DNA from: a virus
Taxonomy: Duplodnaviria; Heunggongvirae; Uroviricota; Caudoviricetes
IMG/VR virus record: IMGVR_UViG_3300008255_000107
Strand: one strand, 5' to 3'
DNA length: 64,000 nt
In this document: positions 39,969 through 59,147 of the stretch, one piece after another
How the letters are laid out: each line of letters begins with the position of its first letter
Position numbering within the stretch: the first letter of the stretch is position 1
The notes under the pieces: generated by a model
Told to the model about the DNA's origin: nothing
Database searches by the model: none
The model's input: only the letters and a program-made list of their open reading frames with translations
Translations under genes and position numbers: made by a program

Positions 39969-41940
39969 GGGCTACCTCCACAAATTGTGATTCTGTCAAA
40001 AGAAGAGTGCCGTACTCACGAGCTTTGTCAAGCTTCGATCCAGCCCCTTCTCCGTATACCACAATAGTGGTCTTTTTGGAAACAGACCCGGTGGTCTTGC
40101 CACCAAGGCTTTTAACCAGGTCCTGGGCTTCTTCCCTGTCCATGGTTTCGAGTCCACCGGTAAAAACTACAGTGTGCCCAAATAAGACCCCGCCCTTCAC
40201 TACTTCCGCAGCCTTGGTACTGAGTCCGAGATCCTTAAGCTCCTGGATGATGCCAGGATTCTCCTTGAAAAACTTTACCACATTCTTGGCGGCCACTTCA
40301 CCTACATCTCGGATCTTGGCGATGTCCTTCATGGGGGTTTCAGCCAATACCTCAAAGTCGTTGTATACGGCTAGGATACGACCGGATGTGCCGGCGCCCA
40401 CATGACGTATACACATACTGGCCAGCACACGATCGGCTCCGGACCTCTTGGCCGCGTCGATACCGTCAAGAGCTCTCCCTACGCTACTGGCCCCCATACC
40501 CTCCACATCTTCAAAGTCCAACGGGGTCAGCCTGAAGATATCCAGAGGCTTCTGGAGGATTCCAAGTTTGATCAACTTGGCGAGAAGTGAAGGACCTACG
40601 TTCATCACATTCATGACCTTGCGGGAAACCACATAGTCCATGGCCTTCTGCAAACGGTCGGGGCACAACTCGTTCGTGCAATACAAGTCAACGTCGTCCC
40701 CACGCTCCACGGTCGTTCCACAACAGGGGCATTTGCTGATGGGGACCACTTTAATGGCATCCTCATCACGTGCGGAGGTATCCACACCAATAACCTTGGG
40801 TATGATCTCTCCACCCTTTTCGATGTACACCTCATCACCAAGGTGAAGATCCAATCTCTCGATCTCATCACAGTTGTGCAGGGTAGCACGTCTAACCGTG
40901 GTCCCACACAGAAAAACCGGGTCCAACTCGGCCACGGGGGTTATCCTCCCCGTGCGACCAACTTGCCAAGTCACGGAATGAGCAGGAGTACGGGCCTGCT
41001 CTGCTTCGAACTTGAAAGCTTTCGCCCACTTAACATGCTTCGAGGTTCTTCCCAACCTCTCGCGTAGGGCCTTGTCGGTTACCTTGATCACGACACCATC
41101 AATGTCAAATGGTAAGATGTGTCGGGCATTCCCGATCTTACCCATAGAAGAATCAAAATTGGTTTTGTCCAGGGCAAAGGCCCCGTTAACATTGGGGAAA
41201 CCCATAGCCTTCATGGCTGCGATTTCTTCTTGCTGGTTTTTGGTATCCGTGCCACGGGCGATGCCGAAGGCAAAGAACTGAAGTCGTTTGCGGGCAACTT
41301 CCCGTGGATCGCTACTTTTCAGGATACCTGCGGCAGCATTACGGGTATTTTGGTAGATAGTCTCTTTGGTCTTAGCGTTAGCAGCGTTGATCGCCTCAAA
41401 CTGCTTTTTACCCAAGATAACTTCACCACGGACTTCGATAGTTCCACCCGTATCGTTTTTAATGATGAGGGGGATATCCGCGATGGTTCGTGCGTTTTTC
41501 GTGACATCGTCGCCCACTGCACCATCACCACGGGTTACTGCCCTGACCAGATTACCTGCAGCGTCGTATTCGACGCCAAGGGATAGTCCATCAAGTTTGA
41601 ACTCCGCAGTGTACTCAGGTGTGACCCCTAGCTCGTTCTCCACGGAATTGGTAAATGCCAGAAATTCTTCGTAAGTGTGTATGTTGTCGATACTGATCAT
41701 GGGGACCACGTGGGTCACCTTTTCGAAACGTGACGACAAATCACTACCCACCCGCTTAGTGGGGGAGTGGGGGTCTGCAAATTCAGGATGATCTTCTTCG
41801 AGAGCAGCAAGTTCGCGGAGCTTACCGTCGAACAGCTGGTCACTCATACGAGAAACACCCTCCTGGTAATAGGAGTCCGATGCGTTCTTTAGCTCCATCG
41901 AGAGGATAGTTATCTGGGCTTTAGCCTCGGCTTTATCCAC
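39934..41940 (-). CDS. ligA: NAD-dependent DNA ligase
   Basis: Adenylation motif EFKLDGLS (KxDG). OB-fold, Zn-finger CPCCGTTVERGDDVDLYCTNELCPDR, HhH region and C-terminal BRCT. 668 aa. Confidence 0.9.
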   Translation of the reverse strand: MDKAEAKAQITILSMELKNASDSYYQEGVSRMSDQLFDGKLRELAALEEDHPEFADPHSPTKRVGSDLSSRFEKVTHVVPMISIDNIHTYEEFLAFTNSVENELGVTPEYTAEFKLDGLSLGVEYDAAGNLVRAVTRGDGAVGDDVTKNARTIADIPLIIKNDTGGTIEVRGEVILGKKQFEAINAANAKTKETIYQNTRNAAAGILKSSDPREVARKRLQFFAFGIARGTDTKNQQEEIAAMKAMGFPNVNGAFALDKTNFDSSMGKIGNARHILPFDIDGVVIKVTDKALRERLGRTSKHVKWAKAFKFEAEQARTPAHSVTWQVGRTGRITPVAELDPVFLCGTTVRRATLHNCDEIERLDLHLGDEVYIEKGGEIIPKVIGVDTSARDEDAIKVVPISKCPCCGTTVERGDDVDLYCTNELCPDRLQKAMDYVVSRKVMNVMNVGPSLLAKLIKLGILQKPLDIFRLTPLDFEDVEGMGASSVGRALDGIDAAKRSGADRVLASMCIRHVGAGTSGRILAVYNDFEVLAETPMKDIAKIRDVGEVAAKNVVKFFKENPGIIQELKDLGLSTKAAEVVKGGVLFGHTVVFTGGLETMDREEAQDLVKSLGGKTTGSVSKKTTIVVYGEGAGSKLDKAREYGTLLLTESQFVEVAHGRVAIESFNR

Positions 41941-43753: not shown

Positions 43754-43827
43754 TGATCGCAACTGGATTCGAACCAGTGGCCTGCTCCTTAGGAGGGAGC
43801 CGCTCTATCCAACTGAGCTATGCGACC
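43754..43827 (-). tRNA. tRNA-Arg (anticodon CCT)
   Basis: Reverse complement GGTCGCA TA GCTCAGTTGGATAGAGC G GCTCC CTCCTAA GGAGC AGGCC ACTGG TTCGAAT CCAGT TGCGATC A. Canonical cloverleaf, 74 nt. Confidence 0.85.
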
Positions 43828-44258: not shown

Positions 44259-45113
44259 TTATGAGATGGGGCCCAATCGTGATACGGAGTTAACCCCATC
44301 CACGTAACGACCACTAAAGGTAGCACCGCGGGGTAAGAAACCTTTGAACCCATCGGCGATTGCCTTAGCATTCCATTCCTCGAAATTAGACCACACGTTA
44401 TCCTGGCAGTGGTATAGCCACATCTTGGCTTTAACCTCAGCGGGGAAAGTACGAAGATCGTCGTAGTGGGCGTGGACACCCGAACGGAATCCAGTTTCAC
44501 AATCATGGAAGATCACATCCGACTCCCCATAATAGGCCCTCATGGTGGTCTCAGGGCTAAACTGGGTGTCGGTGGTCAGAAAATATCGTATACCCACGTC
44601 GGGGTCATTCCACATCAGTCCGTACGAGCTGCAGGTCATGTACTTGGCTGTCACATGGGTAGTCTGGACGATGTCAAACGTAATGTCCTTCCAGGTGAAA
44701 CTTTCATTTCTGTTCACAGGTCGAAGGTCAAAATAGGTGGACAGGGATACGATACGCTCACCTTCCAAGTAGCTGGTACCTTCTAAACCTTCTAGGCCAC
44801 CACGTAATGACTTCTCCCAGGCCTCATTCATTAAGCCACCTTCCATGTAAAGGGTAGGCTTTTCTCGTCCCGGTATAAATTTAGTGACCTGCCCCAAATT
44901 CTCCACCCCACCAATGTGGTCGTTGTGAAGATGGGACACGAAGAAAGCGTTGATGTCGTTGATAGTCTTACCCTGCTGCCTAAGGGCATGCCTGGCGTCC
45001 CCACCACAATCCACTAGGAAATTCTCATTATCCCTAGTGATCAATAAGTTGGAATGCCAATTGTACTCGTAGCTGCAATTGGCGGAACCTGTTCCAATGA
45101 AGTTTAAAATCAT
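44259..45113 (-). CDS. metallo-beta-lactamase-fold hydrolase
   Basis: HLHNDHIGG (the HxHxDH motif) and downstream His/Asp ligands. Confidence 0.6.
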   Translation of the reverse strand: MILNFIGTGSANCSYEYNWHSNLLITRDNENFLVDCGGDARHALRQQGKTINDINAFFVSHLHNDHIGGVENLGQVTKFIPGREKPTLYMEGGLMNEAWEKSLRGGLEGLEGTSYLEGERIVSLSTYFDLRPVNRNESFTWKDITFDIVQTTHVTAKYMTCSSYGLMWNDPDVGIRYFLTTDTQFSPETTMRAYYGESDVIFHDCETGFRSGVHAHYDDLRTFPAEVKAKMWLYHCQDNVWSNFEEWNAKAIADGFKGFLPRGATFSGRYVDGVNSVSRLGPIS

Positions 45114-45208: not shown

Positions 45209-46105
45209 TTATATTCTTCTTCGGAACTTGTCCCAGAACCAATCTTTCTGCCAACCCCTTCCGTCATGTGGACTCACGGGGTCCACGGGGTCCACGGGGT
45301 CTGGATCGGGAGGAACCACCGGATCTACGGGATCTGGGTCTGGGGGTACCACGGGATCTGGTTCAGGAGGGATTACAGGATCAGGCTCCGGCGGCACCAC
45401 AGGGAGAGAACCTGAGTCTGCATCGATGGTAGTCCACACTTCCCAATGATCACCCCAATCCGAGTAGGGGAACAACGTGAGTCCTTCTACGCCCCAATAG
45501 TTACCCCAGCTGTTCCGGATTATGAATCCAAAGGGGTTGTACCCCACTACCGCCATAGCATGCCCGCCTATGTAGGTATCCCCTTCAAAGGCATGCCATA
45601 ACCTTGTAGTGGTATTGAGCACGGGTACAGCCATGACACAAGGTCCATTCGCATACAAAGCGTTTTTCAGCCCTTCAATAGTTAGGACCTGGGCATAGGC
45701 GCTGATCTTATACTGGGCAGCTTTGCCTAGCACAGTAGCATTGGGCTCAGACAGATTCCAGTAAACAAAGTCCTCTTCGAAGCAATCCCCGTAATTCCTT
45801 AGGATGTTCATGAGATCCCTCATGTACATTCCCTCGGCTGGGGCGTTACTTCTCAAGTTGTAAATGAACTGAGGGGACATGTAACCACCGTAGGCCACAT
45901 CCTGTTTCTCTTGCCATTCCTTCATGGCGGCGCCGGCCATCGCCGCACAAGTTCCCTGTGAACCTTGGTCCCTAATCGGATTCATCTCTGAAGCGTAGGA
46001 CAGGTACATAGGGAGTTGTGTGCTATAGGGTACGAGGTTTTCCGAGATATAATCTCGTCTGTCCACCGGACTCTTGATTACGTTAAGATGAAATTGCATT
46101 ACCAC
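45209..46105 (-). CDS. papain-like (C1 family) cysteine peptidase with a C-terminal Pro-rich PEPDPV repeat tail
   Basis: QGSQGTCAAMAGA (catalytic Cys in QGxCGSC-like context), a downstream His in GGHAMAVVGYN, and NSWG. C-terminal (PPEPDPV)n. Confidence 0.65.
   Translation of the reverse strand: MVMQFHLNVIKSPVDRRDYISENLVPYSTQLPMYLSYASEMNPIRDQGSQGTCAAMAGAAMKEWQEKQDVAYGGYMSPQFIYNLRSNAPAEGMYMRDLMNILRNYGDCFEEDFVYWNLSEPNATVLGKAAQYKISAYAQVLTIEGLKNALYANGPCVMAVPVLNTTTRLWHAFEGDTYIGGHAMAVVGYNPFGFIIRNSWGNYWGVEGLTLFPYSDWGDHWEVWTTIDADSGSLPVVPPEPDPVIPPEPDPVVPPDPDPVDPVVPPDPDPVDPVDPVSPHDGRGWQKDWFWDKFRRRI
45270..45400. repeat. tandem degenerate repeats (ggatctgg/ggtccacgggg units) encoding the PEPDPV proline-rich tail
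   Basis: Visible direct repeats in the sequence. Confidence 0.6.
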
Positions 46106-46881
46106 CCCTTAAGCGAAGGCCAGTCAGTCAACAAGTAGGTTAGCAATTCCACAATCTTATCGAACCAGCTACGCTTTTTGACGGGCTTGATGCTGTTTTC
46201 GTCAATCGTGGTCCAGGCTTCCCAAATCCATCTCCAGTCTTCGTAGGGGAGTATCGTGTAACCCTTGTCTCCCCACTCTGGTCCCCAACTGTTTCTGAGT
46301 ATGAACCCCTCATAGTTGTAGCCTACCACAGCCATGGCATGCCCACCGAGCATCAACTCCCCATATTCCTTAAGCCACATGCGGGGACCGTTGTTGTAAA
46401 CCGGTACGGCCACGAGGCACACACCATTGGTGTTCAGGGCCAGCTTCATGTTATCGATGTCCTCGATCTTGGCATACCCCTTTATCTTGAAGTTGGAGGC
46501 TTTAGCCAACACATCCTCATTAGCCGCCTCCGTAGACCCGTAGGGGTAGTCCTCTTCAGGACAATCACCGAACTTATTCAGGATCCTCATGAGATCACGC
46601 GGATACATACCTTCTACTGAGGTATTCTCCCTTAGGTTGTAAATGAACTGAGGGGAGAAGTACCCCTCGTGTTGGATGTCCAATTGCTCCTGCCATTCTT
46701 TCATGCAGGCAGCCGACATCGCCACACAGCTACCCTGGACCCCTTGGTTCCTGATGGGGGGCAGCTTAGGTCTTAAATCCAAAACGCTAGGGAGTTCCTG
46801 GCCTTGGGTTAGTAATTTTCTGGTTTTCCAATCCCTTTCGTCTACTGGACTTTTTTCCAGTTTCAGCAAGTTAGCGTTCAT
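46099..46881 (-). CDS. papain-like (C1 family) cysteine peptidase, tandem paralogue of 45209..46105
   Basis: QGVQGSCVAMSAA, GGHAMAVVGYN, NSWG. The same domain order as the downstream gene, which indicates tandem duplication. Confidence 0.65.
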   Translation of the reverse strand: MNANLLKLEKSPVDERDWKTRKLLTQGQELPSVLDLRPKLPPIRNQGVQGSCVAMSAACMKEWQEQLDIQHEGYFSPQFIYNLRENTSVEGMYPRDLMRILNKFGDCPEEDYPYGSTEAANEDVLAKASNFKIKGYAKIEDIDNMKLALNTNGVCLVAVPVYNNGPRMWLKEYGELMLGGHAMAVVGYNYEGFILRNSWGPEWGDKGYTILPYEDWRWIWEAWTTIDENSIKPVKKRSWFDKIVELLTYLLTDWPSLKGW

Positions 46882-47649: not shown

Positions 47650-47663
47650 GTGGTTACCTCTCT

Positions 47664-47697
47664 AAATAAAAATCCCCCTCCCGGCCAGGAGGGGGAT
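47664..47697 (-). terminator. rho-independent terminator closing the minus-strand Y-RNA-like array (stem atccccctcc / ggagggggat followed by T-run on the minus strand)
   Basis: 10-bp perfect stem at 47672..47697 with loop cggcca. Plus-strand A-run 47664..47671 gives U-run on the minus transcript. Confidence 0.7.
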
Positions 47698-47844
47698 TTC
47701 ATCAAAGTACGCTAGTGTTATCGGTCAGCCCAGCAACCCTTGTGCACCAAGCTGCTTTGCTGTTTTAGGGACAGTATCCTCCAAGGGAGCTTACCCCCAG
47801 AGTCCCACCAAGCCCGCAGTAACCTTTTTTCGCGTACCTCAAAT

Positions 47845-48003
47845 AAATCAGAGTCTGGAATAGTCGGGTAAAGATTCGTTTTCAGGTGCGTCTACCAATT
47901 CCGCCACTCTGACATGTACGCCAGAGAAAGGATTCGAACCCCTACGCCTTACGGCCCCTGATTGGGTATAGAAGTAACTCTACCCTACGCCAAGACTCTA
48001 AAC
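47845..48003 (-). ncRNA. Y-RNA-like (YrlA-like) unit D. Carries a circularly permuted Leu-type (class II D-arm) tRNA-like domain: T-arm AGGGG-TTCGAAT-CCTTT 47943..47927, 3' acceptor CTCTGGC 47926..47920, 6-nt loop, 5' acceptor GTCAGAG 47913..47907, D-arm GCGGAATTGGTAGACGC 47904..47888.
   Basis: Minus-strand reading. The acceptor strands pair 7/7 (one G-U). The T-arm precedes the D-arm. Terminal stem TTAGAGTCTTGG / CCAGACTCTGA. Conserved flanks TTGGCGTAGG ... TTACTTCTATACC and CGACTATTCC. No anticodon arm. Confidence 0.6.
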
Positions 48004-48007
48004 TAAA

Positions 48008-48160
48008 AATATGCCTGGAATTGTCGGAAAAAGGTATTTATCGTGCTCTACCAACTGAGCTAACCCCCATCAGTTTTTCAAGTTACTGGGGGTGCAGGAC
48101 TCGAACCTGCGACCACGTCGTTATCAGCGAAGTATCTCTTTCCTGCGCCAAGGCACACTA
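48008..48160 (-). ncRNA. Y-RNA-like unit C with a permuted tRNA-like domain: T-arm GCAGG-TTCGAGT-CCTGC 48110..48094, 3' acceptor ACCCCCA 48093..48087, 17-nt loop GTAACTTGAAAAACTGA, 5' acceptor TGGGGGT 48069..48063, D-arm GCTCAGTTGGTAGAGC 48060..48045. A CTGATAA (Ile-type) loop lies upstream of the T-arm.
   Basis: 7/7 Watson-Crick acceptor pairing between the upstream 3' strand and the downstream 5' strand. Conserved CTTGGCGCAG-GAAAGAG-ATACTTCGC 5' element and ...AATACC 3' element. Terminal stem TGTGCCTTGG / CCAGGCATA. Confidence 0.6.
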
Positions 48161-48170
48161 AAAATCAAAA

Positions 48171-48320
48171 CCTTAAAAGTACCTGGTATAGTCGTGAAGG
48201 CGACTATTACGGTGTCCTAACCACTAGACGAACCCACGGTGGGGTAGGGGATTCGAACCCCTGTAACCGGCTTGACTTGCGAAGTATGCCTTCACTGCGC
48301 CAAGATACTTTTAGGATCCT
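48171..48320 (-). ncRNA. Y-RNA-like unit B with a permuted Glu-type tRNA-like domain: T-arm AGGGG-TTCGAAT-CCCCT 48262..48246 (identical to the E. coli tRNA-Glu T-arm), 3' acceptor ACCCCAC 48245..48239, 1-nt loop, 5' acceptor GTGGGTT 48237..48231, D-arm GTCTAGTGGTTAGGAC 48229..48214, then hairpin ATAGTCG-CCTTCAC-CGACTAT.
   Basis: As above. Terminal stem CCTAAAAGTATCTTGG / CCAGGTACTTTTAAGG. Conserved CTTGGCGCAG-TGAAGGC-ATACTTCGC and CGACTATACC elements. Confidence 0.6.
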
Positions 48321-48490
48321 GATTCTTGATAGGCCCCGGTATAGTCGAACAGAGGACTGTAACCTTGCTCTACCAGCTGAGCTAACCCCCTAAGTTTTTC
48401 AAGTTACGGGGGTGCGGGATTCGAACCCGCGACCAAGGGCTCCTAAAGCGAAGTATCTCTAATCTGCGCCAGGGGCCTATCAAGAATCAA
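48319..48490 (-). ncRNA. Y-RNA-like unit A with a permuted tRNA-like domain: T-arm GCGGG-TTCGAAT-CCCGC 48430..48414, 3' acceptor ACCCCC 48413..48408, 16-nt loop GTAACTTGAAAAACTT, 5' acceptor (A)GGGGGT 48390..48385, D-arm GCTCAGCTGGTAGAGC 48382..48367. Closed by an 18-bp perfect terminal stem TTGATTCTTGATAGGCCCC (48490..48472) / GGGGCCTATCAAGAATCA (48337..48320).
   Basis: Direct base-pair inspection. The 18-bp terminal helix and conserved CCTGGCGCAG-ATTAGAG-ATACTTCGC / CGACTATACC elements define a discrete 172-nt RNA. Confidence 0.6.
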
Positions 48491-48526
48491 TATAAGAGAT
48501 GGGATGGTCGGTAACGGTGCTTTTGG

Positions 48527-48576
48527 TATAACAAGAAAGGTATAGAAGTAACCGTTACCTGCGCCAATCTCTTGTA
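48527..48576 (-). ncRNA. stem-only element (GGCGCAG-GTAACGG-TTACTTCTATACC) lacking a tRNA-like module. It may be a degenerate or minimal unit at the head of the Y-RNA-like array.
   Basis: Contains the conserved 5' and 3' flank motifs directly juxtaposed. Short terminal pairing ACAAGAGA / TTTCTTGT. Confidence 0.35.
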
Positions 48577-48703
48577 CACCAATATAGTATCTCCTCCCAC
48601 GTTTTTTAACAAAAAAAATAAAAAATGTGAATTTAGTTAAAAAAGCACTTGTCTTCTATATAATGTAGCAGCATATTTAAAGGTTCCACTGGAGGACACC
48701 ACC

Positions 48704-48922
48704 ATGGCTAAAACTTCGAGAATCCCACCGATTATCAAAGGACTGCCTGATGAAAGACTCCGGGCAGCTATTAGGGAACTAGGTAACATGACCTGGGACG
48801 ATGATGCAGAACTCCGCAAGGTCTCGAAAGAGGTCTACGGTGAAGAAGAAGGTGACCTAGTTATGCAGATGTTGTCATTGGCTATACCAATGGCAAGAGA
48901 AATTGAAGAACGCACACGTTGA
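48704..48922 (+). CDS. hypothetical protein (72 aa), first gene of the rsr operon
   Basis: SD GGAGGA before the ATG. Acidic small protein. Confidence 0.45.
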   Translation: MAKTSRIPPIIKGLPDERLRAAIRELGNMTWDDDAELRKVSKEVYGEEEGDLVMQMLSLAIPMAREIEERTR

Positions 48923-48941
48923 AATACCATAGGAGATATCA

Positions 48942-50270
48942 ATGGCAACTTCCTTGAATCAAGCCCGCCACAATAAGGTGCATACCCACGAAGGGGCACC
49001 TGTCATTAAAGTTGGCGCCCACGAAGAACTTACCCGTACCGTGTGTTCCTGCTTGCTTTTCGAAAAAACTTTCTACGAAAGTGGTCAATCTGTCGCGGAC
49101 CGCATCCGGGGTCTGGTACCCCGGTGTGACCCACTGTTCGTCGCTGACACGGCTATCCGTGCCCGTAACGAAATGAAACTACGTCACGTGCCCCTTCTCC
49201 TGGCACGTGAGCTGGCTCGGGAACCTAAGAGCCGCAATCTGTTGGTGTCGTTGCTCCCCAACATCATCAACCGTGCCGACGAACTCGCTGAGTTCATGGC
49301 CATCTACTGGAGCGAAGGCCGTTCACCTGTGGCCTACGCTGTACGCCGTGGCCTTGGAGCAGCTTTCAACAAGTTTGACGAATACCAATTCGCCAAATAC
49401 AACCGTGACAAGGATATCAAGCTTCGTGACGTCCTCCGTGTGGTGCATCCTGTGCCCAAGGATGACGCTCAGTCAGCTATCTTCAAGAAATTGAAGGAAG
49501 GTACCCTTGCTACTCCCGATACCTGGGAAGTAGCTCTGTCCGCATGCAGTGACAAGTCCGCCGAGTGGACTCGTCTTTTGAAGGAGCATAAACTCGGAGC
49601 TATGGCCCTCCTTCGGAACTTGCGTAACATGGGAGAAGCAAACGTGGATCGTGCCTTGGTACGAGAAGAACTGGCTAACGCCAGAACTGACAAGATCCTA
49701 CCTTTCAGATTCATCTCCGCTGCGGACCACAATCCCCATCTGGAAGATGTGCTGGAAACTATGATGCTCAAGAACCTGGAAGGAATTAAAAAGCTTCCTG
49801 GTAAAACTGTACTCCTATCTGATGTTTCCTGGTCTATGGACGACAAGCTGTCCGCCAAGTCCACTATGAAACGAGATGACGCTGCCAGTGGCATCGCCGT
49901 CATCACCCGGGAATTGTGCGAGGAAGTAGAGATCTACGCCTTCGGCAACAATATCTATGCAGTGCCTAACCGCCGGGGTTTCGCTCTTCGCGAACGTCTC
50001 AAAGCCAAACAGGAAGGAACCAAACTGGGTCAGGCTGTCGAGTACATTCAAAAAAATGTACCCTGTGACCGAATCATCGTCTTCACTGACGAACAAACCC
50101 AAGACCGTATCCCTAATGCCGCAAAAGGTGTCAAGGGCTACATCGTGAATGTGGCCGCTAACCAAAATGGCGTGGGGTACGACGGTGGCTGGGTCCATGT
50201 ACACGGTTGGAGCGAATCCGTGATGCGCTACATTTCCGAGTACGAAGACCTGGGGTCCAAAGATGCGTGA
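48942..50270 (+). CDS. rsr: Ro60/Rsr homologue (TROVE domain plus von Willebrand A domain with MIDAS)
   Basis: N-terminal NQ..N...G ... TFYESGQ, LRDVLRVVHPVP (human Ro60 LLRLSHLKP), ALLRNLRNMGEA (Ro60 ALLRNLGKM), ILPFRFISA (IHPFHILIA). vWA MIDAS VLLSDVSWSMDD (Ro60 LLAVDVSASMN) and IVFTDEQT (IVFTDNET). SD AGGAGA upstream. Confidence 0.8.
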   Translation: MATSLNQARHNKVHTHEGAPVIKVGAHEELTRTVCSCLLFEKTFYESGQSVADRIRGLVPRCDPLFVADTAIRARNEMKLRHVPLLLARELAREPKSRNLLVSLLPNIINRADELAEFMAIYWSEGRSPVAYAVRRGLGAAFNKFDEYQFAKYNRDKDIKLRDVLRVVHPVPKDDAQSAIFKKLKEGTLATPDTWEVALSACSDKSAEWTRLLKEHKLGAMALLRNLRNMGEANVDRALVREELANARTDKILPFRFISAADHNPHLEDVLETMMLKNLEGIKKLPGKTVLLSDVSWSMDDKLSAKSTMKRDDAASGIAVITRELCEEVEIYAFGNNIYAVPNRRGFALRERLKAKQEGTKLGQAVEYIQKNVPCDRIIVFTDEQTQDRIPNAAKGVKGYIVNVAANQNGVGYDGGWVHVHGWSESVMRYISEYEDLGSKDA

Positions 50271-50565
50271 GTGTACACCAGAGGAGTTGGCCTTCTTTCG
50301 CTTGAACAAGGAGCATAACGAGCTCCTTGAGAAACAAGGCCAAATGGTTTCCGTGGAATTTGATTTCCAGGGGGATACTCTCAAGGTACTCAAGAAGATG
50401 GCCAAGGATATGGGTGTTAGTATCGACGATGTCGTGTCAGGCGCCCTACGCATCACTTTGGCTAGGCTCGAACAGAAAGGTGTGAAGAAAGGGCCCGCGG
50501 CCCTGAAAAATACTCCTACGCACATCGAGCTTCTTACCAAGAAGAAAACGAAGAAAGCCCGGTAG
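50263..50565 (+). CDS. hypothetical protein (100 aa), co-transcribed with rsr (start overlaps the rsr stop)
   Basis: ORF. Lys-rich C-terminus. Followed by a terminator. Confidence 0.45.
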   Translation: MRECTPEELAFFRLNKEHNELLEKQGQMVSVEFDFQGDTLKVLKKMAKDMGVSIDDVVSGALRITLARLEQKGVKKGPAALKNTPTHIELLTKKKTKKAR

Positions 50566-54536: not shown

Positions 54537-57500
54537 TCAGCTACATTTTGAATAACCACACCTGGCTTCACAGGTGAGGCATTTTTCCACGAAGATCATC
54601 CGGGCGCCGCAGGATGGACACTTCTCCTGGAACAGAAGCTTATCGTTCATCTTATCGGGCTTGGCCGGAGCCACATTCGCCGTCACGGGGGAACCAGTGG
54701 TTACCGGAGGTAAACCCGGCTTCTTGTGCAATTCCTCAGGAGTCAACTCCCCAAGTAAAAGCTTGGACAATCCGTGGTGCTTGGCATTGCGGTACTTGGT
54801 CAGAGCCTTGGCTAGTGCATCGGCCAAACTGCCAACAGTACCTTCCCTGGTGGGGATGGTCTTGGAGCTTCCGATTCCTTCCAACTGATTGACGATCTCC
54901 CCCATGTCCCCACCCATACGGAGGAATAGACTGGCGAGGCGGCAGATGGCTTCCAGATCCGAGGACATCACGTCACCGGCCTTACCGAGTTGTGCAAATA
55001 CTTCGCTTTCCTTGCCGTTAACAGGGTCCACCGACACATTGACATGCATATGACCAAAAGGAGTGTTCTGGCGTAGGCGGACAGAAGTAGTGATGTCTGG
55101 GGTCTTTAGGGGCTTGCGGATCTTGTAATCTTCCTTGGACCTCTTCTCTACGACTTCTTCTTTCTTCTTGTCGTTGACGAGGGACATGGGCTGGGAGGCG
55201 CGGCAATTGTTACGGTACACGGTGATACCCTTACACTTGAGCTTCCAAGCCAACATGTAGGTATCCATGACATCTGCACGAGTGGCTTCCTCAGTGAAAT
55301 TGATTGTCTTGGATATGGACGAATCGCAATGCTCTTGGAAGGCAGCCTGCATCTTCACATGCCATTCAGGAGAAATGTCATGTGTGCACACGAACAGATC
55401 CTTGACATCCTGGGGCACTTCGTCGATATGGGCCACAGATCCCTCACGAATGATGCGATCCATCATTTCCTCGCTGTAGAATCCTCGGTCTTGGGCAACC
55501 TTCTTGAAGTGCTTGTTCACTTCGTACATCACCTTACCGTTCAGAACTTGGCGTTTAAAGGCCAGGCTGAACAGGGGTTCTATACCACCGGAGCAGTCGG
55601 CAATGATGGAGATGGTACCAGTAGGTGCTACCGTGGTCACGGCACTGTTACGCATGGGCTTCACACCGTCATACATGCTTCCCACGTAATTTGGGAAATT
55701 GCCACGTTCACTAGCCAAGGCTCCCGAGGCCTTGTGGCCTTCTTCATTGATGATCTTCATGATGTGCCGGCCCATGTTCACACCTGCTTCGGTGTTATAG
55801 GCAATACCCATGTTGAAGAGGGCGTCTGCAAAACCCATGAGCCCTAAACCGATCTTTCGGTTGCTCTTGCAGATGTGGTCGATCTGCGGGATAGGGTAGG
55901 GGTTGATTTCAATGATGTCTTCGAGGAAACGCACAGAGTGCCTGATGGCTGCCCTGAGTCTCTTCTCATCCAGCTTGCCTTGGACCACGAACTTGGAAAC
56001 ATCGATGGACCCCAGGTTACAGGCTTCGTAGGGAAGCAGAGGTTGCTCGCCACAGTTCCCTGCGCCGATACAGCCAAACACTCCCCTGTGCCTCTTGGGT
56101 TCTGTAAAGCAATAAACCTTTGGAGCTTTTTTCTCCAGTTTATCCACGCTCACTACTCTCACTGAAAAGTTTTTCTGTTGAGAATCACGGGAGATATCAA
56201 CGCGGTGGCACTCCAACCCGTTCTCTTTGAGAATGCTCATTCCCCAAAGAGGGATAAGAAGCCTCCAGGATTCCTGGCAACTGTACTCTTTGCTTCCACC
56301 TAATCCGTCGGGCATCATCTTCCGACAGGCGGACTTCCCAGGAATGATGGAGGAGTGCGTGCCGGAAATAAAGAGCATCTCTTTTACTTCCTGTAAAAAA
56401 TCCTTATCCACTGACCAGATCTGCACACCACCGTCTTTAGTCACCGAACCGTCAGAGTCTACGAGACCGGCGAGCCAAGCCATACGAGAAGTAACATCCC
56501 ATGTTACAGGGGGGACAAAACTCTTTCTCCACCCACCCGCTATGTTCCTACTCAAAGACACAAAAATACGATCGTGTCCACATTCGTTAGCATGCTCGTA
56601 CTTTAGCTTATCCAGGAGATCTTTCTTTTCACCATAGAGCCAAACGGAATCCCTATCTCTCCCAGACTCGCTAGAACCGTCACCACTGAAGAATCCGTGG
56701 GTGTACGCCTCTTCCACGGAAACTACTACCTCTCCTGAAATAACAGGATGATCCCAGCTGGCAAGGCGGTGCCCAGGCTTCAAATACTTGGCCTCTACTT
56801 TGATATCAGATTTATTATCACGGGGTGCACCATCTTGCAAGTAAAAAGAATGGTAGGGGGTACAATCCAAAGAAGATCCGTCACTGAAAGCTACTCGAAG
56901 GAGATCTTGGTTCTCACCCGTTACGGAGGGGGTAACTGTGCTCCACTCTTCTCCGTTCCACACACCAACCCGTTGGTCAACAAGGGAGTCAATACGCTTG
57001 AAACCTTGATTGGTGAGAATTTTGGTTTCACCCGTGACACAGGGGTTTGTAGCTTCGATCTCACCAATATGGGGAGTGGGGTTTTTGGCATTGATTTCAT
57101 CAATGAAGATCAGACCGGGTTCACCGGTACGCCACGCACAGTCCACAATGACATCGAACACTTGCTTGCGGGTCCAATACTCTTCGGGGTTGTACGAACC
57201 ATTGGGGTCGTACTCCACCAAATCCACCAGGCCGTAATTCATGATGTTGATGTTCTCGTTGCGGAACTTACGCGGAACGATGAACCTCTTACCACTATGG
57301 GTGTTGGTGACCACGTGGATGCCCTCGGGATCCAAGTCGTAGGACAGCATCCACAGCTCGGGTATCTTGACGGAGATGTTGTAGTTGTTGAAGACATTGA
57401 GGTCTTGCTTGGCATGGATGAATTTCAGGATGTCGGGGTGAGTTACCGTCATCATGCCCATGTTGGCGCCACGGCGGAAGGCACCCTGCTGGATGGCATT

Positions 57501-59147
57501 GGTGGCTTCTGAAAGCACTTTCCAAAAACTGATGGGGCCCGAAGTGGTTCCACCAGAGGACTTGATGTACTCGCCAGTTGGGCGGAGCTTATCGAAGGAG
57601 AAACCGGTACCCCCACCAGCCTTCTGGATAATAGCAGTGTCCTTGACAGTGTCAAAGATACCATCGATGGAGTCTTCAATAGGTAAGACAAAACAGTTAT
57701 GAACAAGAACTCCATCTACCACAAACGAACCGTTACCATCATCGGCTGTCTGTATATCGTACACCTCCATATCACCCAGGTACTCGCACCCCCTGTACTT
57801 CATGCGTACAGGCCCCGAACCTTCCTCCGTGGTAAGATTACCCAGTATTTCATTTTTACGATCGGAGATGAAACCAATTCTACTTCTAAAATTAAGGATA
57901 TGGTCCCTATGGTTAATTTGTACAGTCCACCCGTCCAGACGGTTGGGTCTTCCATCCCTTTTCAGGTTCACTTGGTTGTACACACCAAAAAGATCTAGCA
58001 TTCTGGACACCCCGAAAGCCAGTTCCTTTGAAACTGTTTGGAAACCTATACCTGTACTACTAATACACCCGTCTGCTTCAAAAATAACCTTAAGGAATTC
58101 TTTTTTGGTCAAGTAATTGGATGACTCCACCTGAGGTGGTAGGGTCTTGGTGTCTTTACGGGAAAATAGTCCATATTTTTCACATAGAACAGCAAGATTT
58201 CTGTCGTAAGAGCGTATGCGCGTGAATCTTTCCACACCACCTACCCCTTCCTCTTCTTTCTGGGTATAGCTAAAACCTAGCTTATCCATAAGATTGACAA
58301 CATGGTCCAGGGATTTACTGTCAATAACTTGGATCTCTCCTACAAAAAACTCGCTATTACCTTTCGACTGAGGGTACCAGTTACAACCCCCATCTGTCAA
58401 AATCCATGCAGCTAGTGCTATTTCAAGATCCAAAGTTTGTTCCATACGGGGGTATTCCCCCTGAACACCCTCTTTTATGTACTTACCCTCGGGTATCTTA
58501 CCTATCTCCTCCCACACAAACTCACCGGGGACCCGTTTAGAACCCGACCCTTTACCGGCCTCATAGTACTGATACCGGTGGTCCAAGGTGCTGTCCACGA
58601 CCCTACTAGAGCCCATGTAGTGCCTATACACAGGTCTCACCCCCTGTCTAGCTGCGACACGTACCCTGACCCACGTACCCTGACCGCTAGAAACTATTAC
58701 CGTTTCTCCGCGCTCCACCATTAACACAATTTCTTTCATAGGGACGTACCCGTACCTAGTTAGTACGGGGGCATCGCCGGATATACAGGCACTTAGCAAA
58801 TTGTCGTTGCGGCCTGCATTCATGAGGGTGGGGCTGTTGGGCATGAATTCACCCGTGGCCATTAGATTGTAGAAACGCTTGCGCCATTTCTTCTCGTCAC
58901 CATTGTAGGGACGCTCCCCTGAGGCGGTAGCGGCGGCTACCCTATAGAAAAGGTCCTTGGCTGTCTCCACATTGGCACCTTGCTCATTTTTCTGCAGGTA
59001 GCGGTCCTTGAGGACGGTCATGGCATTGGGGGTGAGCTCGGGCTCCTGGTAAGACGGATCGGTCTCACGGAATTCGTTTGTCATCTGTTCTCCTTTAGAA
59101 TTGTACAAAACACTATATCCCACGTGCGGTGGTGGGTTAAACCACAA
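54537..59147 (-). CDS. nrdJ: class II (adenosylcobalamin-dependent, NrdJ-type) ribonucleotide reductase interrupted by two inteins. The extein is about 840 aa. The true start is possibly Met22 or Met43 of the ORF.
   Basis: Extein motifs LKDRYL, TLMNAGR..LLSA|CFVLP (catalytic Cys region), IGEIEATNP|CGEQPL (NPCGE motif) and a C-terminal Zn ribbon CPSCG...CLTCEARCG. Total 1536 aa. Confidence 0.85.
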   Translation of the reverse strand: MWFNPPPHVGYSVLYNSKGEQMTNEFRETDPSYQEPELTPNAMTVLKDRYLQKNEQGANVETAKDLFYRVAAATASGERPYNGDEKKWRKRFYNLMATGEFMPNSPTLMNAGRNDNLLSACISGDAPVLTRYGYVPMKEIVLMVERGETVIVSSGQGTWVRVRVAARQGVRPVYRHYMGSSRVVDSTLDHRYQYYEAGKGSGSKRVPGEFVWEEIGKIPEGKYIKEGVQGEYPRMEQTLDLEIALAAWILTDGGCNWYPQSKGNSEFFVGEIQVIDSKSLDHVVNLMDKLGFSYTQKEEEGVGGVERFTRIRSYDRNLAVLCEKYGLFSRKDTKTLPPQVESSNYLTKKEFLKVIFEADGCISSTGIGFQTVSKELAFGVSRMLDLFGVYNQVNLKRDGRPNRLDGWTVQINHRDHILNFRSRIGFISDRKNEILGNLTTEEGSGPVRMKYRGCEYLGDMEVYDIQTADDGNGSFVVDGVLVHNCFVLPIEDSIDGIFDTVKDTAIIQKAGGGTGFSFDKLRPTGEYIKSSGGTTSGPISFWKVLSEATNAIQQGAFRRGANMGMMTVTHPDILKFIHAKQDLNVFNNYNISVKIPELWMLSYDLDPEGIHVVTNTHSGKRFIVPRKFRNENINIMNYGLVDLVEYDPNGSYNPEEYWTRKQVFDVIVDCAWRTGEPGLIFIDEINAKNPTPHIGEIEATNPCVTGETKILTNQGFKRIDSLVDQRVGVWNGEEWSTVTPSVTGENQDLLRVAFSDGSSLDCTPYHSFYLQDGAPRDNKSDIKVEAKYLKPGHRLASWDHPVISGEVVVSVEEAYTHGFFSGDGSSESGRDRDSVWLYGEKKDLLDKLKYEHANECGHDRIFVSLSRNIAGGWRKSFVPPVTWDVTSRMAWLAGLVDSDGSVTKDGGVQIWSVDKDFLQEVKEMLFISGTHSSIIPGKSACRKMMPDGLGGSKEYSCQESWRLLIPLWGMSILKENGLECHRVDISRDSQQKNFSVRVVSVDKLEKKAPKVYCFTEPKRHRGVFGCIGAGNCGEQPLLPYEACNLGSIDVSKFVVQGKLDEKRLRAAIRHSVRFLEDIIEINPYPIPQIDHICKSNRKIGLGLMGFADALFNMGIAYNTEAGVNMGRHIMKIINEEGHKASGALASERGNFPNYVGSMYDGVKPMRNSAVTTVAPTGTISIIADCSGGIEPLFSLAFKRQVLNGKVMYEVNKHFKKVAQDRGFYSEEMMDRIIREGSVAHIDEVPQDVKDLFVCTHDISPEWHVKMQAAFQEHCDSSISKTINFTEEATRADVMDTYMLAWKLKCKGITVYRNNCRASQPMSLVNDKKKEEVVEKRSKEDYKIRKPLKTPDITTSVRLRQNTPFGHMHVNVSVDPVNGKESEVFAQLGKAGDVMSSDLEAICRLASLFLRMGGDMGEIVNQLEGIGSSKTIPTREGTVGSLADALAKALTKYRNAKHHGLSKLLLGELTPEELHKKPGLPPVTTGSPVTANVAPAKPDKMNDKLLFQEKCPSCGARMIFVEKCLTCEARCGYSKCS
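56055..57041 (-). mobile_element. intein 2 (329 aa) inserted at the NP^CGE active-site motif of NrdJ. Contains a LAGLIDADG homing-endonuclease domain.
   Basis: Starts CVTGETKIL (Hint block A) directly after EATNP. LAGLVDSDG motif. Ends ...GAGN followed by +1 Cys of CGEQPL. Excision restores the canonical NPCGEQPL. Confidence 0.75.
57696..58787 (-). mobile_element. intein 1 (364 aa) inserted between LLSA and CFVLP of NrdJ. LAGLIDADG-type (two motifs).
   Basis: Starts CISGDAPVLTRYG. LAAWILTDGG and LKVIFEADGC LAGLIDADG-like motifs. Ends VLVHN followed by +1 Cys. Excision restores NAGR..LLSACFVLP. Confidence 0.8.

What the first reader, a model, noticed from the sequence alone, without database searches (positions are those of the whole stretch)
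47845..50565. Phage-encoded Ro60/Rsr next to an array of about four Y-RNA-like RNAs with circularly permuted tRNA-like domains
Reading the minus strand from 48576 down to 47845, canonical tRNA T-arms with a 3' acceptor strand are each followed, after a 1-17 nt loop, by the complementary 5' acceptor strand and a canonical D-arm. The four matching pairs are ACCCCC/GGGGGT, ACCCCAC/GTGGGTT, ACCCCCA/TGGGGGT (7/7 WC) and CTCTGGC/GTCAGAG. Every 5' half matches the T-arm upstream of it, not the one downstream, so these are not ordinary tRNAs. There is no anticodon arm in the tRNA position. Each unit is instead enclosed by a long terminal helix (18 bp perfect in unit A) and by conserved flanking elements (YTTGGCGCAG-N7-ATACTTCGC on the 5' side, CGACTATACC on the 3' side). 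As I recall it, this is the architecture of bacterial YrlA-type Y RNAs: a Ro60-binding stem plus a tRNA mimic whose acceptor ends are joined by a loop. The Rsr homologue at 48942..50270 starts only about 370 nt from the array head (48576), divergently transcribed. That mirrors the rsr / Y-RNA linkage in bacteria. What is new here: the module sits in a phage-like genome. It is multiplied into a tandem array. The units carry different tRNA identities (Glu-like T-arm identical to E. coli tRNA-Glu, Ile/Ala-like D-arm, class II Leu-like D-arm). The array includes minimal stem-only units. This suggests a viral Ro60 RNP that presents several tRNA mimics, for example to recruit host tRNA-processing or decay enzymes, or to act as decoys for tRNA-targeting defence nucleases.
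Basis: partly seen in the sequence, partly recalled or inferred. Interest (0 to 1): 0.92.

Follow-up and report, generated by a model that had tools for sequence, protein, structure and literature searches.

The report
Phage Ro60 gene with Y-RNA array
A jumbo-phage-like genome carries a Ro60/Rsr RNA-binding protein gene next to five small Y RNAs, four of which contain a rearranged tRNA look-alike; this kind of system is already known in bacteria and phages, so it is a good new example and not a new kind of thing.

Summary
On the minus strand, 48573..47848, five tightly packed units share one design. Each has a terminal helix, a conserved bulged internal loop (5' UGGCGYAG, 3' CGAC.AU.CC), a 7-bp covarying helix and WUACUUC. 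In four units a T arm, a closed acceptor-like hairpin and a D arm follow, with no anticodon loop. ARAGORN calls no tRNA there. Rfam YrlA matches two units (41.7 and 38.4 bits, below its cut-off of 69, as for phage CcrColossus at 42.3). The divergent ORF 48942..50270 is a TROVE/Ro60 protein.

This is the published YrlA-type Y RNA / Rsr system. Chen et al. 2014 reported it in 254 bacteria and 22 phages, and Thermus phage phiLo Ro60-Yrl was characterised in 2025.

The claimed novelties are overstated. Arrays with stem-only units and with Glu-like or Leu-like tRNA modules also lie upstream of rsr in CcrColossus, Brevundimonas jumbo phages and many viral contigs.

Three things are unusual here:
- The array is on the strand opposite to rsr. 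About 135 model hits and 76 tRNA-like modules in other loci are all on the rsr strand.
- Four of five units carry tRNA mimics (Lys-like twice, Glu-like, class II Leu-like).
- The 5' motif is GGCGCAG.

Function is inferred only.

The parts
48581..48612 (-). Promoter-like site for the Y-RNA array. Either TTAAAA-17-TATATT, or TTGTTA-17-TACTAT read by eye. It ends 5-10 nt before the first unit.
   Evidence: Consensus scan. The number of such sites in the region is no higher than in shuffles, so only the position is suggestive. Sequence.
48494..48573 (-). Unit U0, a stem-only Y RNA of 80 nt: P1 of 7 bp, UGGCGCAG, P2 GUAACGG/CCGUUAC, UUACUUCUAUACC, 3' CGACCAUCCC.
   Evidence: R2 40.4 bits; z -3.96.
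48320..48489 (-). Unit UA, a YrlA-type Y RNA of 170 nt. It has an 18-bp perfect P1, the Ro-type loop and P2. Its tRNA-like module has T arm GCGGG/CCCGC, a 6-bp acceptor-like stem with a 17-nt loop, and D arm GCUC/GAGC.
   Evidence: Rfam YrlA 41.7 bits, E 1.6e-7. Fold z -5.51. De-permuted chimera called a tRNA.
48175..48312 (-). Unit UB, a Y RNA of 138 nt with a permuted tRNA-Glu-like body. The acceptor-like hairpin is short (4 bp, 6-nt loop).
   Evidence: Against E. coli tRNA-Glu: T arm 17/17, 3' half 24/25, 5' half 20/24. Fold. Not detected by Rfam YrlA at E<=10.
48008..48159 (-). Unit UC, a YrlA-type Y RNA of 152 nt. It has a tRNA-Lys-like T arm and D arm and a 7-bp acceptor stem closed by a 17-nt loop.
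   Evidence: Rfam YrlA 38.4 bits, E 1.5e-6. Both arms match E. coli tRNA-Lys at 90%. The minimum-energy fold reproduces P1, P2, T arm, acceptor stem and D arm.
47848..48001 (-). Unit UD, a Y RNA of 154 nt with a class II (tRNA-Leu-like) module. It has a variable-arm hairpin GCC-GUAA-GGC, T arm AGGGG/CCUUU, a 7-bp acceptor stem with a 6-nt loop, and D arm GCG-GAAUUGGUAGA-CGC. Nucleotides 15 and 48 are A and U.
   Evidence: D side 26/28 to E. coli tRNA-Leu. The de-permuted chimera is called as an 87-nt tRNA. Also.
47702..47842 (-). Sixth structured RNA (U6) between the last unit and the terminator. It has an 11-bp terminal helix and contains GCGAAAAAAG-GUUACUGCG. It lacks the UGGCGYAG/P2 design, so whether it belongs to the array is unresolved.
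   Evidence: Fold (z -5.3, terminator included). Not found by model R2.
47664..47700 (-). Intrinsic terminator-like hairpin followed by a T run. It would end a transcript of about 910 nt.
   Evidence: terminator-type matches.
48637..48664 (+). Promoter-like site (TTAAAA-16-TATAAT) for the divergent orf72-rsr-orf100 operon.
   Evidence: consensus match only.
48704..48922 (+). orf72, a small ORF with a strong ribosome-binding site just upstream of rsr. Function unknown, and not conserved next to rsr elsewhere.
48942..50270 (+). rsr, a Ro60/Rsr homologue of 442 aa with a TROVE ring domain and a vWA domain carrying a DxSxS (DVSWS) MIDAS motif.
   Evidence: Pfam TROVE E 5e-15, with vWA_Ro60 weak. 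PDB 9L5Y/9KOP, Thermus phage phiLo Ro60, E 1e-25 over residues 13-434. phrog_850 E 1.8e-42.
50263..50565 (+). orf100, overlapping the rsr stop codon. Function unknown, and not conserved next to rsr elsewhere.

Best explanation
This is a phage-encoded Ro60 (Rsr) ribonucleoprotein module.

Transcription and processing (inferred). Two back-to-back promoters in the 125-bp gap would drive orf72-rsr-orf100 rightwards. Leftwards they would drive a precursor of about 910 nt holding five Y RNAs and a sixth structured RNA, ended by an intrinsic terminator. The precursor would be cut into individual RNAs of 80-170 nt whose ends are held together by the terminal helix. This follows M. smegmatis, where YrlA and YrlB come from one precursor.

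Rsr binding (inferred). Rsr would bind the conserved bulged helix and internal loop (bulged U, GG:CC, 5' CGYAG, 3' CGAC.AU.), which is a variant of the YrlA GNCGAAN0-1G site. The inference rests on conservation of this element in about 140 units that lie next to rsr genes.

Distal module (shown at the sequence and fold level). The distal end of four units is a circularly permuted tRNA body with T arm, closed acceptor stem and D arm. The elbow contacts are present: G18, G19, U54/U55/C56/A58, and the 15:48 pair as G:C or A:U.

Function of the tRNA-like module (inferred from published systems). By analogy with D. radiodurans, S. Typhimurium and Thermus phage phiLo, it would make the RNA nuclease-resistant. 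It would also tether Rsr to a host effector, most likely a 3'-5' exoribonuclease such as PNPase, so that the phage redirects decay or quality control of structured RNA during infection. UC and UD have 7-bp acceptor stems. Like M. smegmatis YrlA, they are predicted to be cut by RNase P and to receive CCA.

Confidence. About 0.9 that this is an Rsr/Y-RNA system, and about 0.4 for the exoribonuclease-tether mechanism. The overall figure given for this explanation is 0.78.
For: Architecture and covariation of P1 and P2 are shown within the array and across 22 units from 7 loci. The second set was partly selected for pairing.

Rfam YrlA matches UA and UC over the T arm, acceptor stem and D arm core, model positions 23-86. 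The scores equal those of phages already credited with YrlA: CcrColossus 42.3 bits and Xanthomonas phage MET23-P3 52.3 bits.

There are no tRNA calls in native order, but all four de-permuted modules are called.

The Rsr identity of the ORF rests.

My model R1 of the Ro-binding module finds about 135 further units, always next to rsr genes, in viral contigs, isolated phages and metagenomes.

No ORF of 50 aa or more lies in 47650-48636 on either strand.

Promoter and terminator positions fit the model.

The published basis for the mechanism is PMC4201824, bioRxiv 10.1101/312249 and PMC12135203.
Against: There is no expression, processing or binding data, because the sequence comes from metagenome assemblies.

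The Rfam scores are below the curated cut-off, and UB and UD are not detected at all.

The 5' motif is GGCGCAG, not GNCGAA.

The array is on the strand opposite to rsr, unlike every related locus examined. Co-regulation is therefore assumed, not given.

The D and T stems differ between units, whereas they are described as nearly invariant in YrlAs. The modules may therefore not share one effector.

No phage or host PNPase link can be tested, since the host is unknown.

The promoter matches are not enriched over shuffles.
Confidence: 0.78

Rival explanations
1. The tRNA-like modules act mainly as decoys or sponges. With or without Rsr, they would present Lys-, Glu- and Leu-type tRNA bodies. These would sequester or misdirect host factors that recognise tRNA shape, such as tRNA-targeting defence nucleases, toxins, modification enzymes or synthetases. 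Rsr would only stabilise or deliver them.
For: Three different tRNA types sit on one scaffold. The same non-canonical types recur in unrelated phage arrays, which suggests that module identity is selected. An Apyc1-like anti-defence gene lies 3 kb away. The phiLo authors also propose an anti-defence role.
Against: No unit has an anticodon stem-loop, which is the target and main recognition site of known anticodon nucleases. The acceptor ends are closed, so there is no CCA end unless RNase P opens them. There is no direct evidence. The neighbouring small ORFs are not conserved.
Confidence: 0.12
2. The units are permuted or split tRNA genes that mature into working tRNAs. RNase P and RNase Z would open the acceptor loop, and the outer stem would be cut and ligated, as in the permuted tRNA genes of the red alga Cyanidioschyzon.
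For: The order is 3' half then 5' half. Seven-bp acceptor stems occur in UC and UD. All tRNA tertiary-contact nucleotides are kept. Processing towards canonical tRNAs is raised as a possibility in the YrlA structure paper.
Against: No anticodon loop sequence exists anywhere in the units. The stem in the anticodon position runs into the conserved Ro-type loop and P1. UB cannot form a 7-bp acceptor stem. U0 has no tRNA part but shares the same flanks. No bulge-helix-bulge motif is present, and no bacterial splicing endonuclease is known.
Confidence: 0.03
3. The region is debris of tandemly duplicated tRNA genes, or ordinary tRNAs that were misparsed, and has no present function.
For: The phage carries many tRNA genes. 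Chen et al. list dimeric tRNAs as a source of false YrlA hits. Halves of units can be mis-called as tRNA, for example the annotated tRNA-Gln of CcrColossus and L017.
Against: No tRNA is called in the region. Compensatory changes keep P1, P2, the T stems and the acceptor stems paired in every unit. The non-tRNA flanks are conserved across distant phages and always sit beside rsr. The packing is tight, with a promoter and a terminator at the ends.
Confidence: 0.02
4. The RNAs are Rsr-independent structured small RNAs, for example regulators or processing and stability elements of a phage early transcript. On this reading their position next to rsr is coincidental in this genome.
For: The array is on the opposite strand with its own promoter-like site and terminator. 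In Sinorhizobium phage Phosso, two similar Y-like RNAs have no rsr within 3.5 kb.
Against: The same module sits beside rsr in more than 60 independent loci. The conserved loop resembles the experimentally defined Ro60 site.
Confidence: 0.05

Closest known systems
YrlA RNAs of S. Typhimurium and M. smegmatis and relatives (Rfam RF02553; Chen et al. 2014, PMC4201824; structure PDB 6CU1)
   Same: - Encoded within 4 kb of rsr.
- The 5' and 3' ends pair in a long stem that carries a Ro60-site motif near the 5' end.
- The distal domain is a T arm, a closed acceptor-like stem-loop and a D arm, with the tRNA tertiary contacts and no anticodon loop.
- A second, simpler Y RNA (YrlB-like, stem-only or T arm only) accompanies it, co-transcribed as a precursor.
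- UA and UC match the Rfam core.
   Different: - The array is on the strand opposite to rsr.
- The 5' motif is GGCGCAG, not GNCGAAN0-1G.
- There are five units, not one or two.
- UB and UD have Glu-type and class II Leu-type arms, whereas YrlA D and T stems are nearly invariant, and the Rfam model does not see them.
- All scores are below the Rfam cut-off.
Caulobacter phage CcrColossus and Brevundimonas jumbo phages (Dolichocephalovirinae): rsr with upstream Y-RNA arrays
   Same: - The Rsr is 43-44% identical.
- The unit design is the same (GGUGGCGUAG-N7-UUACUUC ... CGNYUGUUCCCC).
- CcrColossus has about 8 units, at least 5 of them tRNA-like and of different types. These include a Leu-like D arm identical to that of UD and one unit that uses GGCGCAG.
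- All are jumbo-phage genomes with many tRNAs.
   Different: - Their arrays lie upstream of rsr on the same strand.
- Their 3' motif is ...UGUUCCCC, against CGACUAUACC here.
- The arrays are not annotated in the records, and one unit is annotated as tRNA-Gln.
Thermus phage phiLo Ro60 with Yrl1 and Yrl2 (PMC12135203; PDB 9KOP, 9L5Y)
   Same: It is the closest solved structure to this Rsr (E 1e-25). The Y-like RNAs are phage-encoded beside the gene. In vitro it forms a complex with host PNPase, which is the model for the mechanism proposed here.
   Different: Two Yrls lie upstream on the same strand and were identified by a CGAA motif. No tRNA-like domain is described for them in the text I could read.
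D. radiodurans Rsr-Yrn1-PNPase (RYPER)
   Same: It is a Ro60 ring plus a modular Y RNA that tethers an exoribonuclease. The Y RNA has a T-arm-like element.
   Different: Yrn1 keeps both strands of the metazoan-type helix and has a different order of tRNA-like elements. It is a bacterial stress system, not a phage one.
Circularly permuted tRNA genes (Cyanidioschyzon merolae) and two-piece tmRNA genes
   Same: The 3' half (T arm and 3' acceptor strand) precedes the 5' half (5' acceptor strand and D arm), and the two are joined by a loop.
   Different: Those genes encode a complete anticodon arm, or a tag reading frame, and mature to functional tRNA or tmRNA. Here there is no anticodon loop. ARAGORN finds no tmRNA. 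Rfam tmRNA matches are limited to the T arm.

Membership tests
YrlA-type bacterial/phage Y RNA (RF02553; Chen et al. 2014) | Encoded within about 4 kb of a Ro60/Rsr orthologue | tested here: met
   The array head at 48573 is 369 nt from the rsr start at 48942.
YrlA-type bacterial/phage Y RNA (RF02553; Chen et al. 2014) | On the same DNA strand as rsr ('nearly all' in Chen et al.) | tested here: not met
   The array is on the minus strand and rsr on the plus strand. All other R1 hits (about 135) and all 76 other tRNA-like modules are on the rsr strand. The paper presents this as a usual property and a search criterion, not a functional requirement.
YrlA-type bacterial/phage Y RNA (RF02553; Chen et al. 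2014) | GNCGAAN0-1G motif near the 5' end (putative Ro60 site) | tested here: inconclusive
   All five units have GGCG(C/U)AG at that position, which is one substitution from GNCGAAG. Related phage units have GGCGUAG, and L005 has GGUGAAAG. The position and context are conserved, but the exact motif is not.
YrlA-type bacterial/phage Y RNA (RF02553; Chen et al. 2014) | T-arm-like and D-arm-like stem-loops separated by an acceptor-like stem-loop, with tRNA tertiary-contact nucleotides including a covarying 15:48 pair | tested here: met
   Present in UA, UB, UC and UD. The 15:48 pair is G15:C48 in UA, UB and UC and A15:U48 in UD, read directly. U0 lacks the domain and is YrlB-like.
YrlA-type bacterial/phage Y RNA (RF02553; Chen et al. 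2014) | Nearly invariant D- and T-stem sequences (GCUC/GAGC, GCGGG/CCCGC type) | tested here: not met
   Met by UA and UC only. UB has GUCU/GGAC with AGGGG/CCCCU. UD has GCG/CGC with AGGGG/CCUUU.
YrlA-type bacterial/phage Y RNA (RF02553; Chen et al. 2014) | Score at or above the Rfam gathering threshold (69 bits) | tested here: not met
   UA scores 41.7 bits and UC 38.4 bits. The calibration phages also fail: CcrColossus 42.3, and MET23-P3 52.3 and 37.5. None of 17 viral rsr loci reaches the threshold.
YrlA-type bacterial/phage Y RNA (RF02553; Chen et al. 2014) | Bound by Rsr in vivo; modified by TruB and DusA | not testable with these tools
   Needs immunoprecipitation and modification mapping.
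Ro60/Rsr protein | TROVE (HEAT-repeat ring) domain followed by a vWA domain with a MIDAS motif | tested here: met
   Pfam TROVE E 5e-15. vWA_Ro60 scores 21.6 bits, below its cut-off of 27.7. The full-length match to solved phage Ro60 9L5Y/9KOP has E 1e-25. phrog_850 E 1.8e-42. A DVSWS motif is in the translation. The ring fold itself was not modelled.
Ordinary (contiguous) tRNA genes | Cloverleaf with an anticodon arm, detected by tRNA finders | tested here: not met
   ARAGORN finds none in 47848-48573. The best Rfam tRNA score is 19.3 bits against a cut-off of 29.
Circularly permuted tRNA genes that mature to tRNAs | A complete anticodon stem-loop is reconstituted from the transcript termini | tested here: not met
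   The stem in the anticodon position continues into P2, the Ro-type loop and P1. No 7-nt anticodon loop is present.
tmRNA (including two-piece, permuted) | tRNA-like domain plus a tag reading frame; detected by ARAGORN or Rfam | tested here: not met
   ARAGORN finds no tmRNA. Rfam tmRNA and beta_tmRNA match only the 17-18 nt T arm.

The most novel reading that the evidence does not exclude
Phage Y-RNA arrays may be panels of different tRNA-body mimics mounted on one Ro60-binding scaffold. Here the panel is Lys, Glu and class II Leu. The same Leu-like and Glu-like arms recur in CcrColossus and in unrelated viral contigs.

On this reading the tRNA type of each module is functionally selected. 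Each RNA would bring Rsr, and whatever nuclease it gates, to a different tRNA-specific host factor, or would titrate that factor. Candidates are a synthetase, a modification enzyme or a tRNA-directed immune nuclease. The phage Ro60 RNP would then be a tRNA-surveillance or counter-defence device and not a general RNA-decay helper.

The published view is that YrlA D and T stems are nearly invariant and bind one unknown factor. The diversity seen here is not described in the literature I could read.
Probability: 0.15. Interest if true: 0.75.

Novelty: new member of a known kind. Interest (0 to 1): 0.38.

Why it matters
What the tRNA-like domain of bacterial Y RNAs does is still an open question. 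The published structure paper says only that the conserved D and T stems may bind 'an unknown factor'.

This locus, and the related phage arrays found here, offer a natural experiment. The same Ro60-binding scaffold carries no tRNA module, canonical YrlA modules, a tRNA-Glu body, or a class II tRNA-Leu body. Acceptor stems range from 4 to 7 bp, so RNase P susceptibility is predicted to differ between units.

This gives ready-made constructs for asking which tRNA features matter for effector recruitment, processing and stability.

There is also an annotation lesson. Rfam's YrlA model misses phage Y RNAs at its cut-off, and tRNA finders can mis-call halves of these units, as with the 'tRNA-Gln' of CcrColossus. 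Beyond that, the finding adds one more phage to a known class.

Tried and rejected
(1) Rfam at gathering thresholds found nothing in the array. Only the permissive scan showed YrlA.

(2) My covariance models R1 and R2 used a 4-nt linker in place of the variable insert. They cannot span the 80-100 nt inserts of the window's long units and split them into partial hits. They are good for short units and for related loci, and poor for the window itself. R2 did not support U6 as a sixth unit.

(3) The IMG/VR scan for TTGGCGYAG-N7-WTACTTC gave 85 loci, but only 8 were confirmed by R1. The rest are chance matches of a 14-base pattern in a very large collection.

(4) No close relative of this locus exists in the collections. 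The best Rsr identity is 54%, and the two contigs that carry the identical protein are identical in sequence. Orthologous covariation and population variation could therefore not be tested, and the covariation evidence comes from paralogous units and distant loci.

(5) The units used for alignment A1 were chosen partly by their pairing, so the 91.6% paired figure is biased upward. The independent support is that the complementary 7-mer always sits immediately before the conserved 3' motif.

(6) The shared 17-nt acceptor loop of UA and UC looked like a conserved functional element. However, the whole tRNA module of the two units is about 93% identical and the loop occurs nowhere else, so recent duplication explains it.

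(7) The neighbouring ORFs (orf72, orf100, orf149, orf97, orf93) have no Pfam or PHROG match and are not found next to rsr elsewhere. They are not conserved partners.

(8) The supplementary tables of Chen et al. 2014 and two Wolin-lab reviews are not held. I could not check how many YrlAs were listed per phage or whether non-canonical modules were noted.

(9) The reading as tandem tRNAs, a permuted tRNA gene or a tmRNA was rejected, as set out under rival explanations.

Full report
**What is there**

Read on the minus strand, 48573 to 47848 holds five tightly packed units separated by 3-15 nt. Each unit has, in order:
- A terminal helix P1 of 7-18 bp, including the perfect 18-bp helix 48489-48472 with 48337-48320 in UA.
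- A bulged U and two G:C pairs.
- The 5' strand CG(C/U)AG.
- A 7-bp helix P2.
- The block (A/U)UACUUC.
- A variable insert.
- The 3' strand of P2.
- CGAC(U/A/C)AU(A/U/C)CC.
- The 3' strand of P1.

A regular expression for the 5' signature (GGCGYAG-N7-NTNCWTC) hits only these five places in the 64-kb window on either strand. It hits 17 further places in six related loci, each with a complementary 7-mer immediately before the 3' motif.

Covariation. On the five window units, 98.5% of P1/P2 cells are paired. Twelve of 13 pairs change on both sides, and no shuffle out of 500 reaches the observed values. Sliding the partner by 1-3 columns drops pairing to 23-52%. The 22-unit set gives 91.6% paired and 0 of 500 shuffles, with the caveat that those units were partly selected by pairing.

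Folding. Folding energies are below those of shuffles: z = -3.96 (U0), -5.51 (UA), -2.63 (UB), -2.24 (UC) and -2.48 (UD). The minimum-energy fold of UC reproduces the whole proposed structure.

Coding. No ORF of 50 aa or more lies in 47650-48636.

**The tRNA-like inserts**

In UA, UB, UC and UD the insert is a T arm, then a hairpin made of the 3' and 5' acceptor strands, then a D arm. A short helix in the position of the anticodon stem closes the junction. There is no anticodon loop.

In native order, ARAGORN finds no tRNA and the Rfam tRNA model reaches only 19.3 bits against a cut-off of 29. I then reordered each module (5' acceptor strand and D arm, a synthetic anticodon arm, then variable region, T arm and 3' acceptor strand). 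ARAGORN called all four as tRNAs, and UD as an 87-nt class II tRNA.

Compared with E. coli tRNAs, used only as a reference set:
- UB is a tRNA-Glu body. The T arm is 17/17 identical, the 3' half 24/25 and the 5' half 20/24. The differences lie in the D loop, and the top three pairs of the anticodon stem are kept.
- UC, and its roughly 93% identical twin module in UA, matches tRNA-Lys in both arms at 90%.
- The D side of UD matches tRNA-Leu at 26/28, and UD has a variable-arm hairpin.

The 15:48 pair is G:C in UA, UB and UC and A:U in UD (read). Chen et al. used the same covariation as evidence for a tRNA fold.

- The 7-bp acceptor pairing proposed for UB would leave a 1-nt loop. Only a 4-bp hairpin with a 6-nt loop can form.
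- UA has 6 bp plus an A-G mismatch.
- UC and UD have true 7-bp stems.

**The protein and the genome**

ORF 48942-50270 (442 aa) matches:
- Pfam TROVE, E 5e-15, with a weak Ro60-type vWA match.
- The solved Ro60 of Thermus phage phiLo over residues 13-434, E 1e-25.
- phrog_850 'RNA-binding protein', E 1.8e-42.

It carries a DVSWS MIDAS motif.

The exact protein is encoded on a 208,623-bp metagenome contig and on a second, independent assembly. Both are identical to the window over the region, so the divergent arrangement is not an assembly accident.

The window also encodes GroEL, an NAD-dependent ligase, a collagen-like tail fibre, glycosyltransferases, a ribonucleotide reductase with an intein, and seven tRNAs. 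It is therefore a jumbo-phage-like genome.

**Transcription (inferred)**

The 125-bp gap between the array and orf72 holds back-to-back sigma-70-like sites. The leftward one ends 5-10 nt before U0. An intrinsic terminator lies at 47700-47664. The promoter matches are consensus hits whose number is not above that in shuffles, and only their placement is suggestive.

Between UD and the terminator lies a sixth structured RNA (47842-47702) with an 11-bp terminal helix and a GCGAA...GUUACUGCG stretch. It lacks the unit design, and model R2 did not detect it.

**Comparison with what is known**

The Rfam YrlA model matches UA (41.7 bits, E 1.6e-7) and UC (38.4 bits, E 1.5e-6) over its core of T arm, acceptor stem and D arm. 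This is below the 69-bit cut-off. The phages already credited with YrlA also fall below it: CcrColossus 42.3 bits and MET23-P3 52.3 bits. None of 17 viral rsr loci reaches the cut-off either.

Published background:
- Chen et al. 2014 (PMC4201824) reported 355 YrlA-like RNAs within 4 kb of Ro60 in 254 bacteria and 22 phages. They described a GNCGAAN0-1G motif near the 5' end, and T-like and D-like arms separated by an acceptor-like stem-loop. They also reported companion YrlB RNAs processed from the same precursor. In M. smegmatis YrlA, the 7-bp acceptor stem is cut by RNase P and receives CCA.
- The Ro60 of Thermus phage phiLo binds two phage-encoded Y-like RNAs and, in vitro, host PNPase.

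**How unusual is this array?**

Model R1 of the Ro-binding module found about 135 further units in rsr loci from IMG/VR, isolated phages and metagenomes, commonly 2-5 per locus.

Read by eye, CcrColossus has about eight units in the unannotated gap upstream of rsr. At least five have tRNA-like modules of different types. One has a D arm (GCG-GAAUUGGUAGA-CGC) identical to that of UD, and one uses GGCGCAG. Brevundimonas phage Marchewka is similar. Viral contig L005 has four units, all tRNA-like, one with a Glu-type D arm.

A structural scan found permuted modules (T arm, hairpin, D arm) in about two thirds of 110 rsr loci. Of the D stems, 52 were canonical and 28 non-canonical.

Arrays, stem-only units and mixed tRNA types are therefore a recurrent feature of phage rsr loci and are not new to this window. 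I found no paper in the held library that describes this diversity.

Features that do set the window apart:
- All R1 hits and all 76 tRNA-like modules elsewhere are on the rsr strand. This array is divergent from rsr.
- Its 3' motif (CGACUAUACC) and the GGCGCAG motif form a distinct sub-lineage.
- The nearest Rsr is only 54% identical.
- Four of its five units carry tRNA mimics.

**Mechanism**

Shown at sequence level:
- The unit design and its covariation.
- The permuted tRNA bodies.
- The Rsr identity of the neighbouring gene.
- The association of this RNA module with rsr across many loci.

Inferred:
- Co-transcription and processing of the array.
- Rsr binding at the conserved bulged loop.
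- Nuclease resistance conferred by the tRNA fold.
- Tethering of Rsr to a host exoribonuclease such as PNPase.
- RNase P opening of UC and UD.

Rivals are a decoy for tRNA-binding factors, maturation to real tRNAs, tRNA debris, and Rsr-independent small RNAs. They are weighed in their own section. The absence of any anticodon loop and the conservation of the non-tRNA flanks argue against the second and third.

**Verdict**

This is a real and correctly recognised feature, and a new member of a known kind. The remaining interest lies in the divergent orientation and in the under-described diversity of tRNA types in phage Y-RNA arrays.

Noticed in passing
window 38915-39095 (-): An RNA-like element of about 175 nt in an intergenic gap. 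It has a 7-bp acceptor-type helix (GCGGAUU/GGUCCGC), a canonical T arm (GCGGG-UUCGAGU-CCCGU) and A73, but about 100 nt of extra structure where the D and anticodon arms should be. ARAGORN makes no tRNA or tmRNA call, Rfam has no match at E<=1, and the fold z-score is only -1.25.
   Followed up: partly
window 47702-47842 (-): A sixth structured RNA between the last Y-RNA unit and the terminator. It has an 11-bp terminal helix, a GCGAAAAAAG stretch (a CGAA motif as in other Y RNAs) and GUUACUGCG resembling the units' UUACUUCG. It lacks the UGGCGYAG/P2 design. It may be a degenerate or different kind of Y RNA.
   Followed up: partly
window 44259-45113 (-): The ORF matches Pfam Anti-Pycsar Apyc1 (86.6 bits, cut-off 50), a metallo-beta-lactamase fold and a candidate anti-defence cyclic-nucleotide phosphodiesterase. 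It lies 3 kb from the array, next to tRNA-Arg (43754-43827).
   Followed up: no
window 45209-46881 (-): Two tandem papain-family (Peptidase_C1) ORFs. The first ends in a Pro/Asp-rich repeat tail. This is unusual cargo for a phage.
   Followed up: no
window 54537-59147 (-): A ribonucleotide reductase large subunit of 1536 aa interrupted by a LAGLIDADG-type intein. An HNH endonuclease ORF lies at 62257-62838, beside the tRNA cluster at 62840-63628.
   Followed up: no
window 34203-35828 (-) and 39934-41940 (-): A phage-encoded GroEL chaperonin (phrog_5725, E 5e-144) and an NAD-dependent DNA ligase (phrog_3869, E 3.5e-179). Both fit a jumbo phage, and the source contig is 208,623 bp.
   Followed up: partly
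L113 (Caulobacter phage CcrColossus NC_019406) 1217-2415: The unannotated gap upstream of the rsr gene holds about eight Y-RNA units. The record's 'tRNA-Gln' (locus 1628-1695) lies inside one of them and looks like a mis-call. The 5' half of these units (GGUGGCG-UAG ... T arm) resembles a tRNA enough to reach the Rfam tRNA cut-off in L017 5985-6052 (30 bits). This hints that the whole Y RNA may descend from a tRNA dimer.
   Followed up: partly
L198 (Sinorhizobium phage Phosso PV764938) 3240-3600, minus strand of the locus: Two unannotated Y-like RNAs, each followed by a terminator. One has a Glu-type permuted tRNA module 81% identical to UB, and the other a class II-type D arm. No rsr gene is annotated within 3.5 kb.
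   Followed up: partly
L009, L010, L014, L015 (viral contigs): In several distant rsr loci the gene sits inside or beside large tRNA gene clusters of 10-20 tRNAs within 9 kb. Ro60 genes and tRNA islands seem to travel together in large phages.
   Followed up: no
window 48524-48549 and 47958-47977 (-), in U0 and UD: U0 and UD share UUACUUCUAUACC on the 5' side. Its CUAUACC repeats the tail of the 3' motif CGACUAUACC. In UD it can pair with the 5' strand of P2 as an alternative hairpin (RNAfold). This may be an alternative conformation or a relic of duplication.
   Followed up: no
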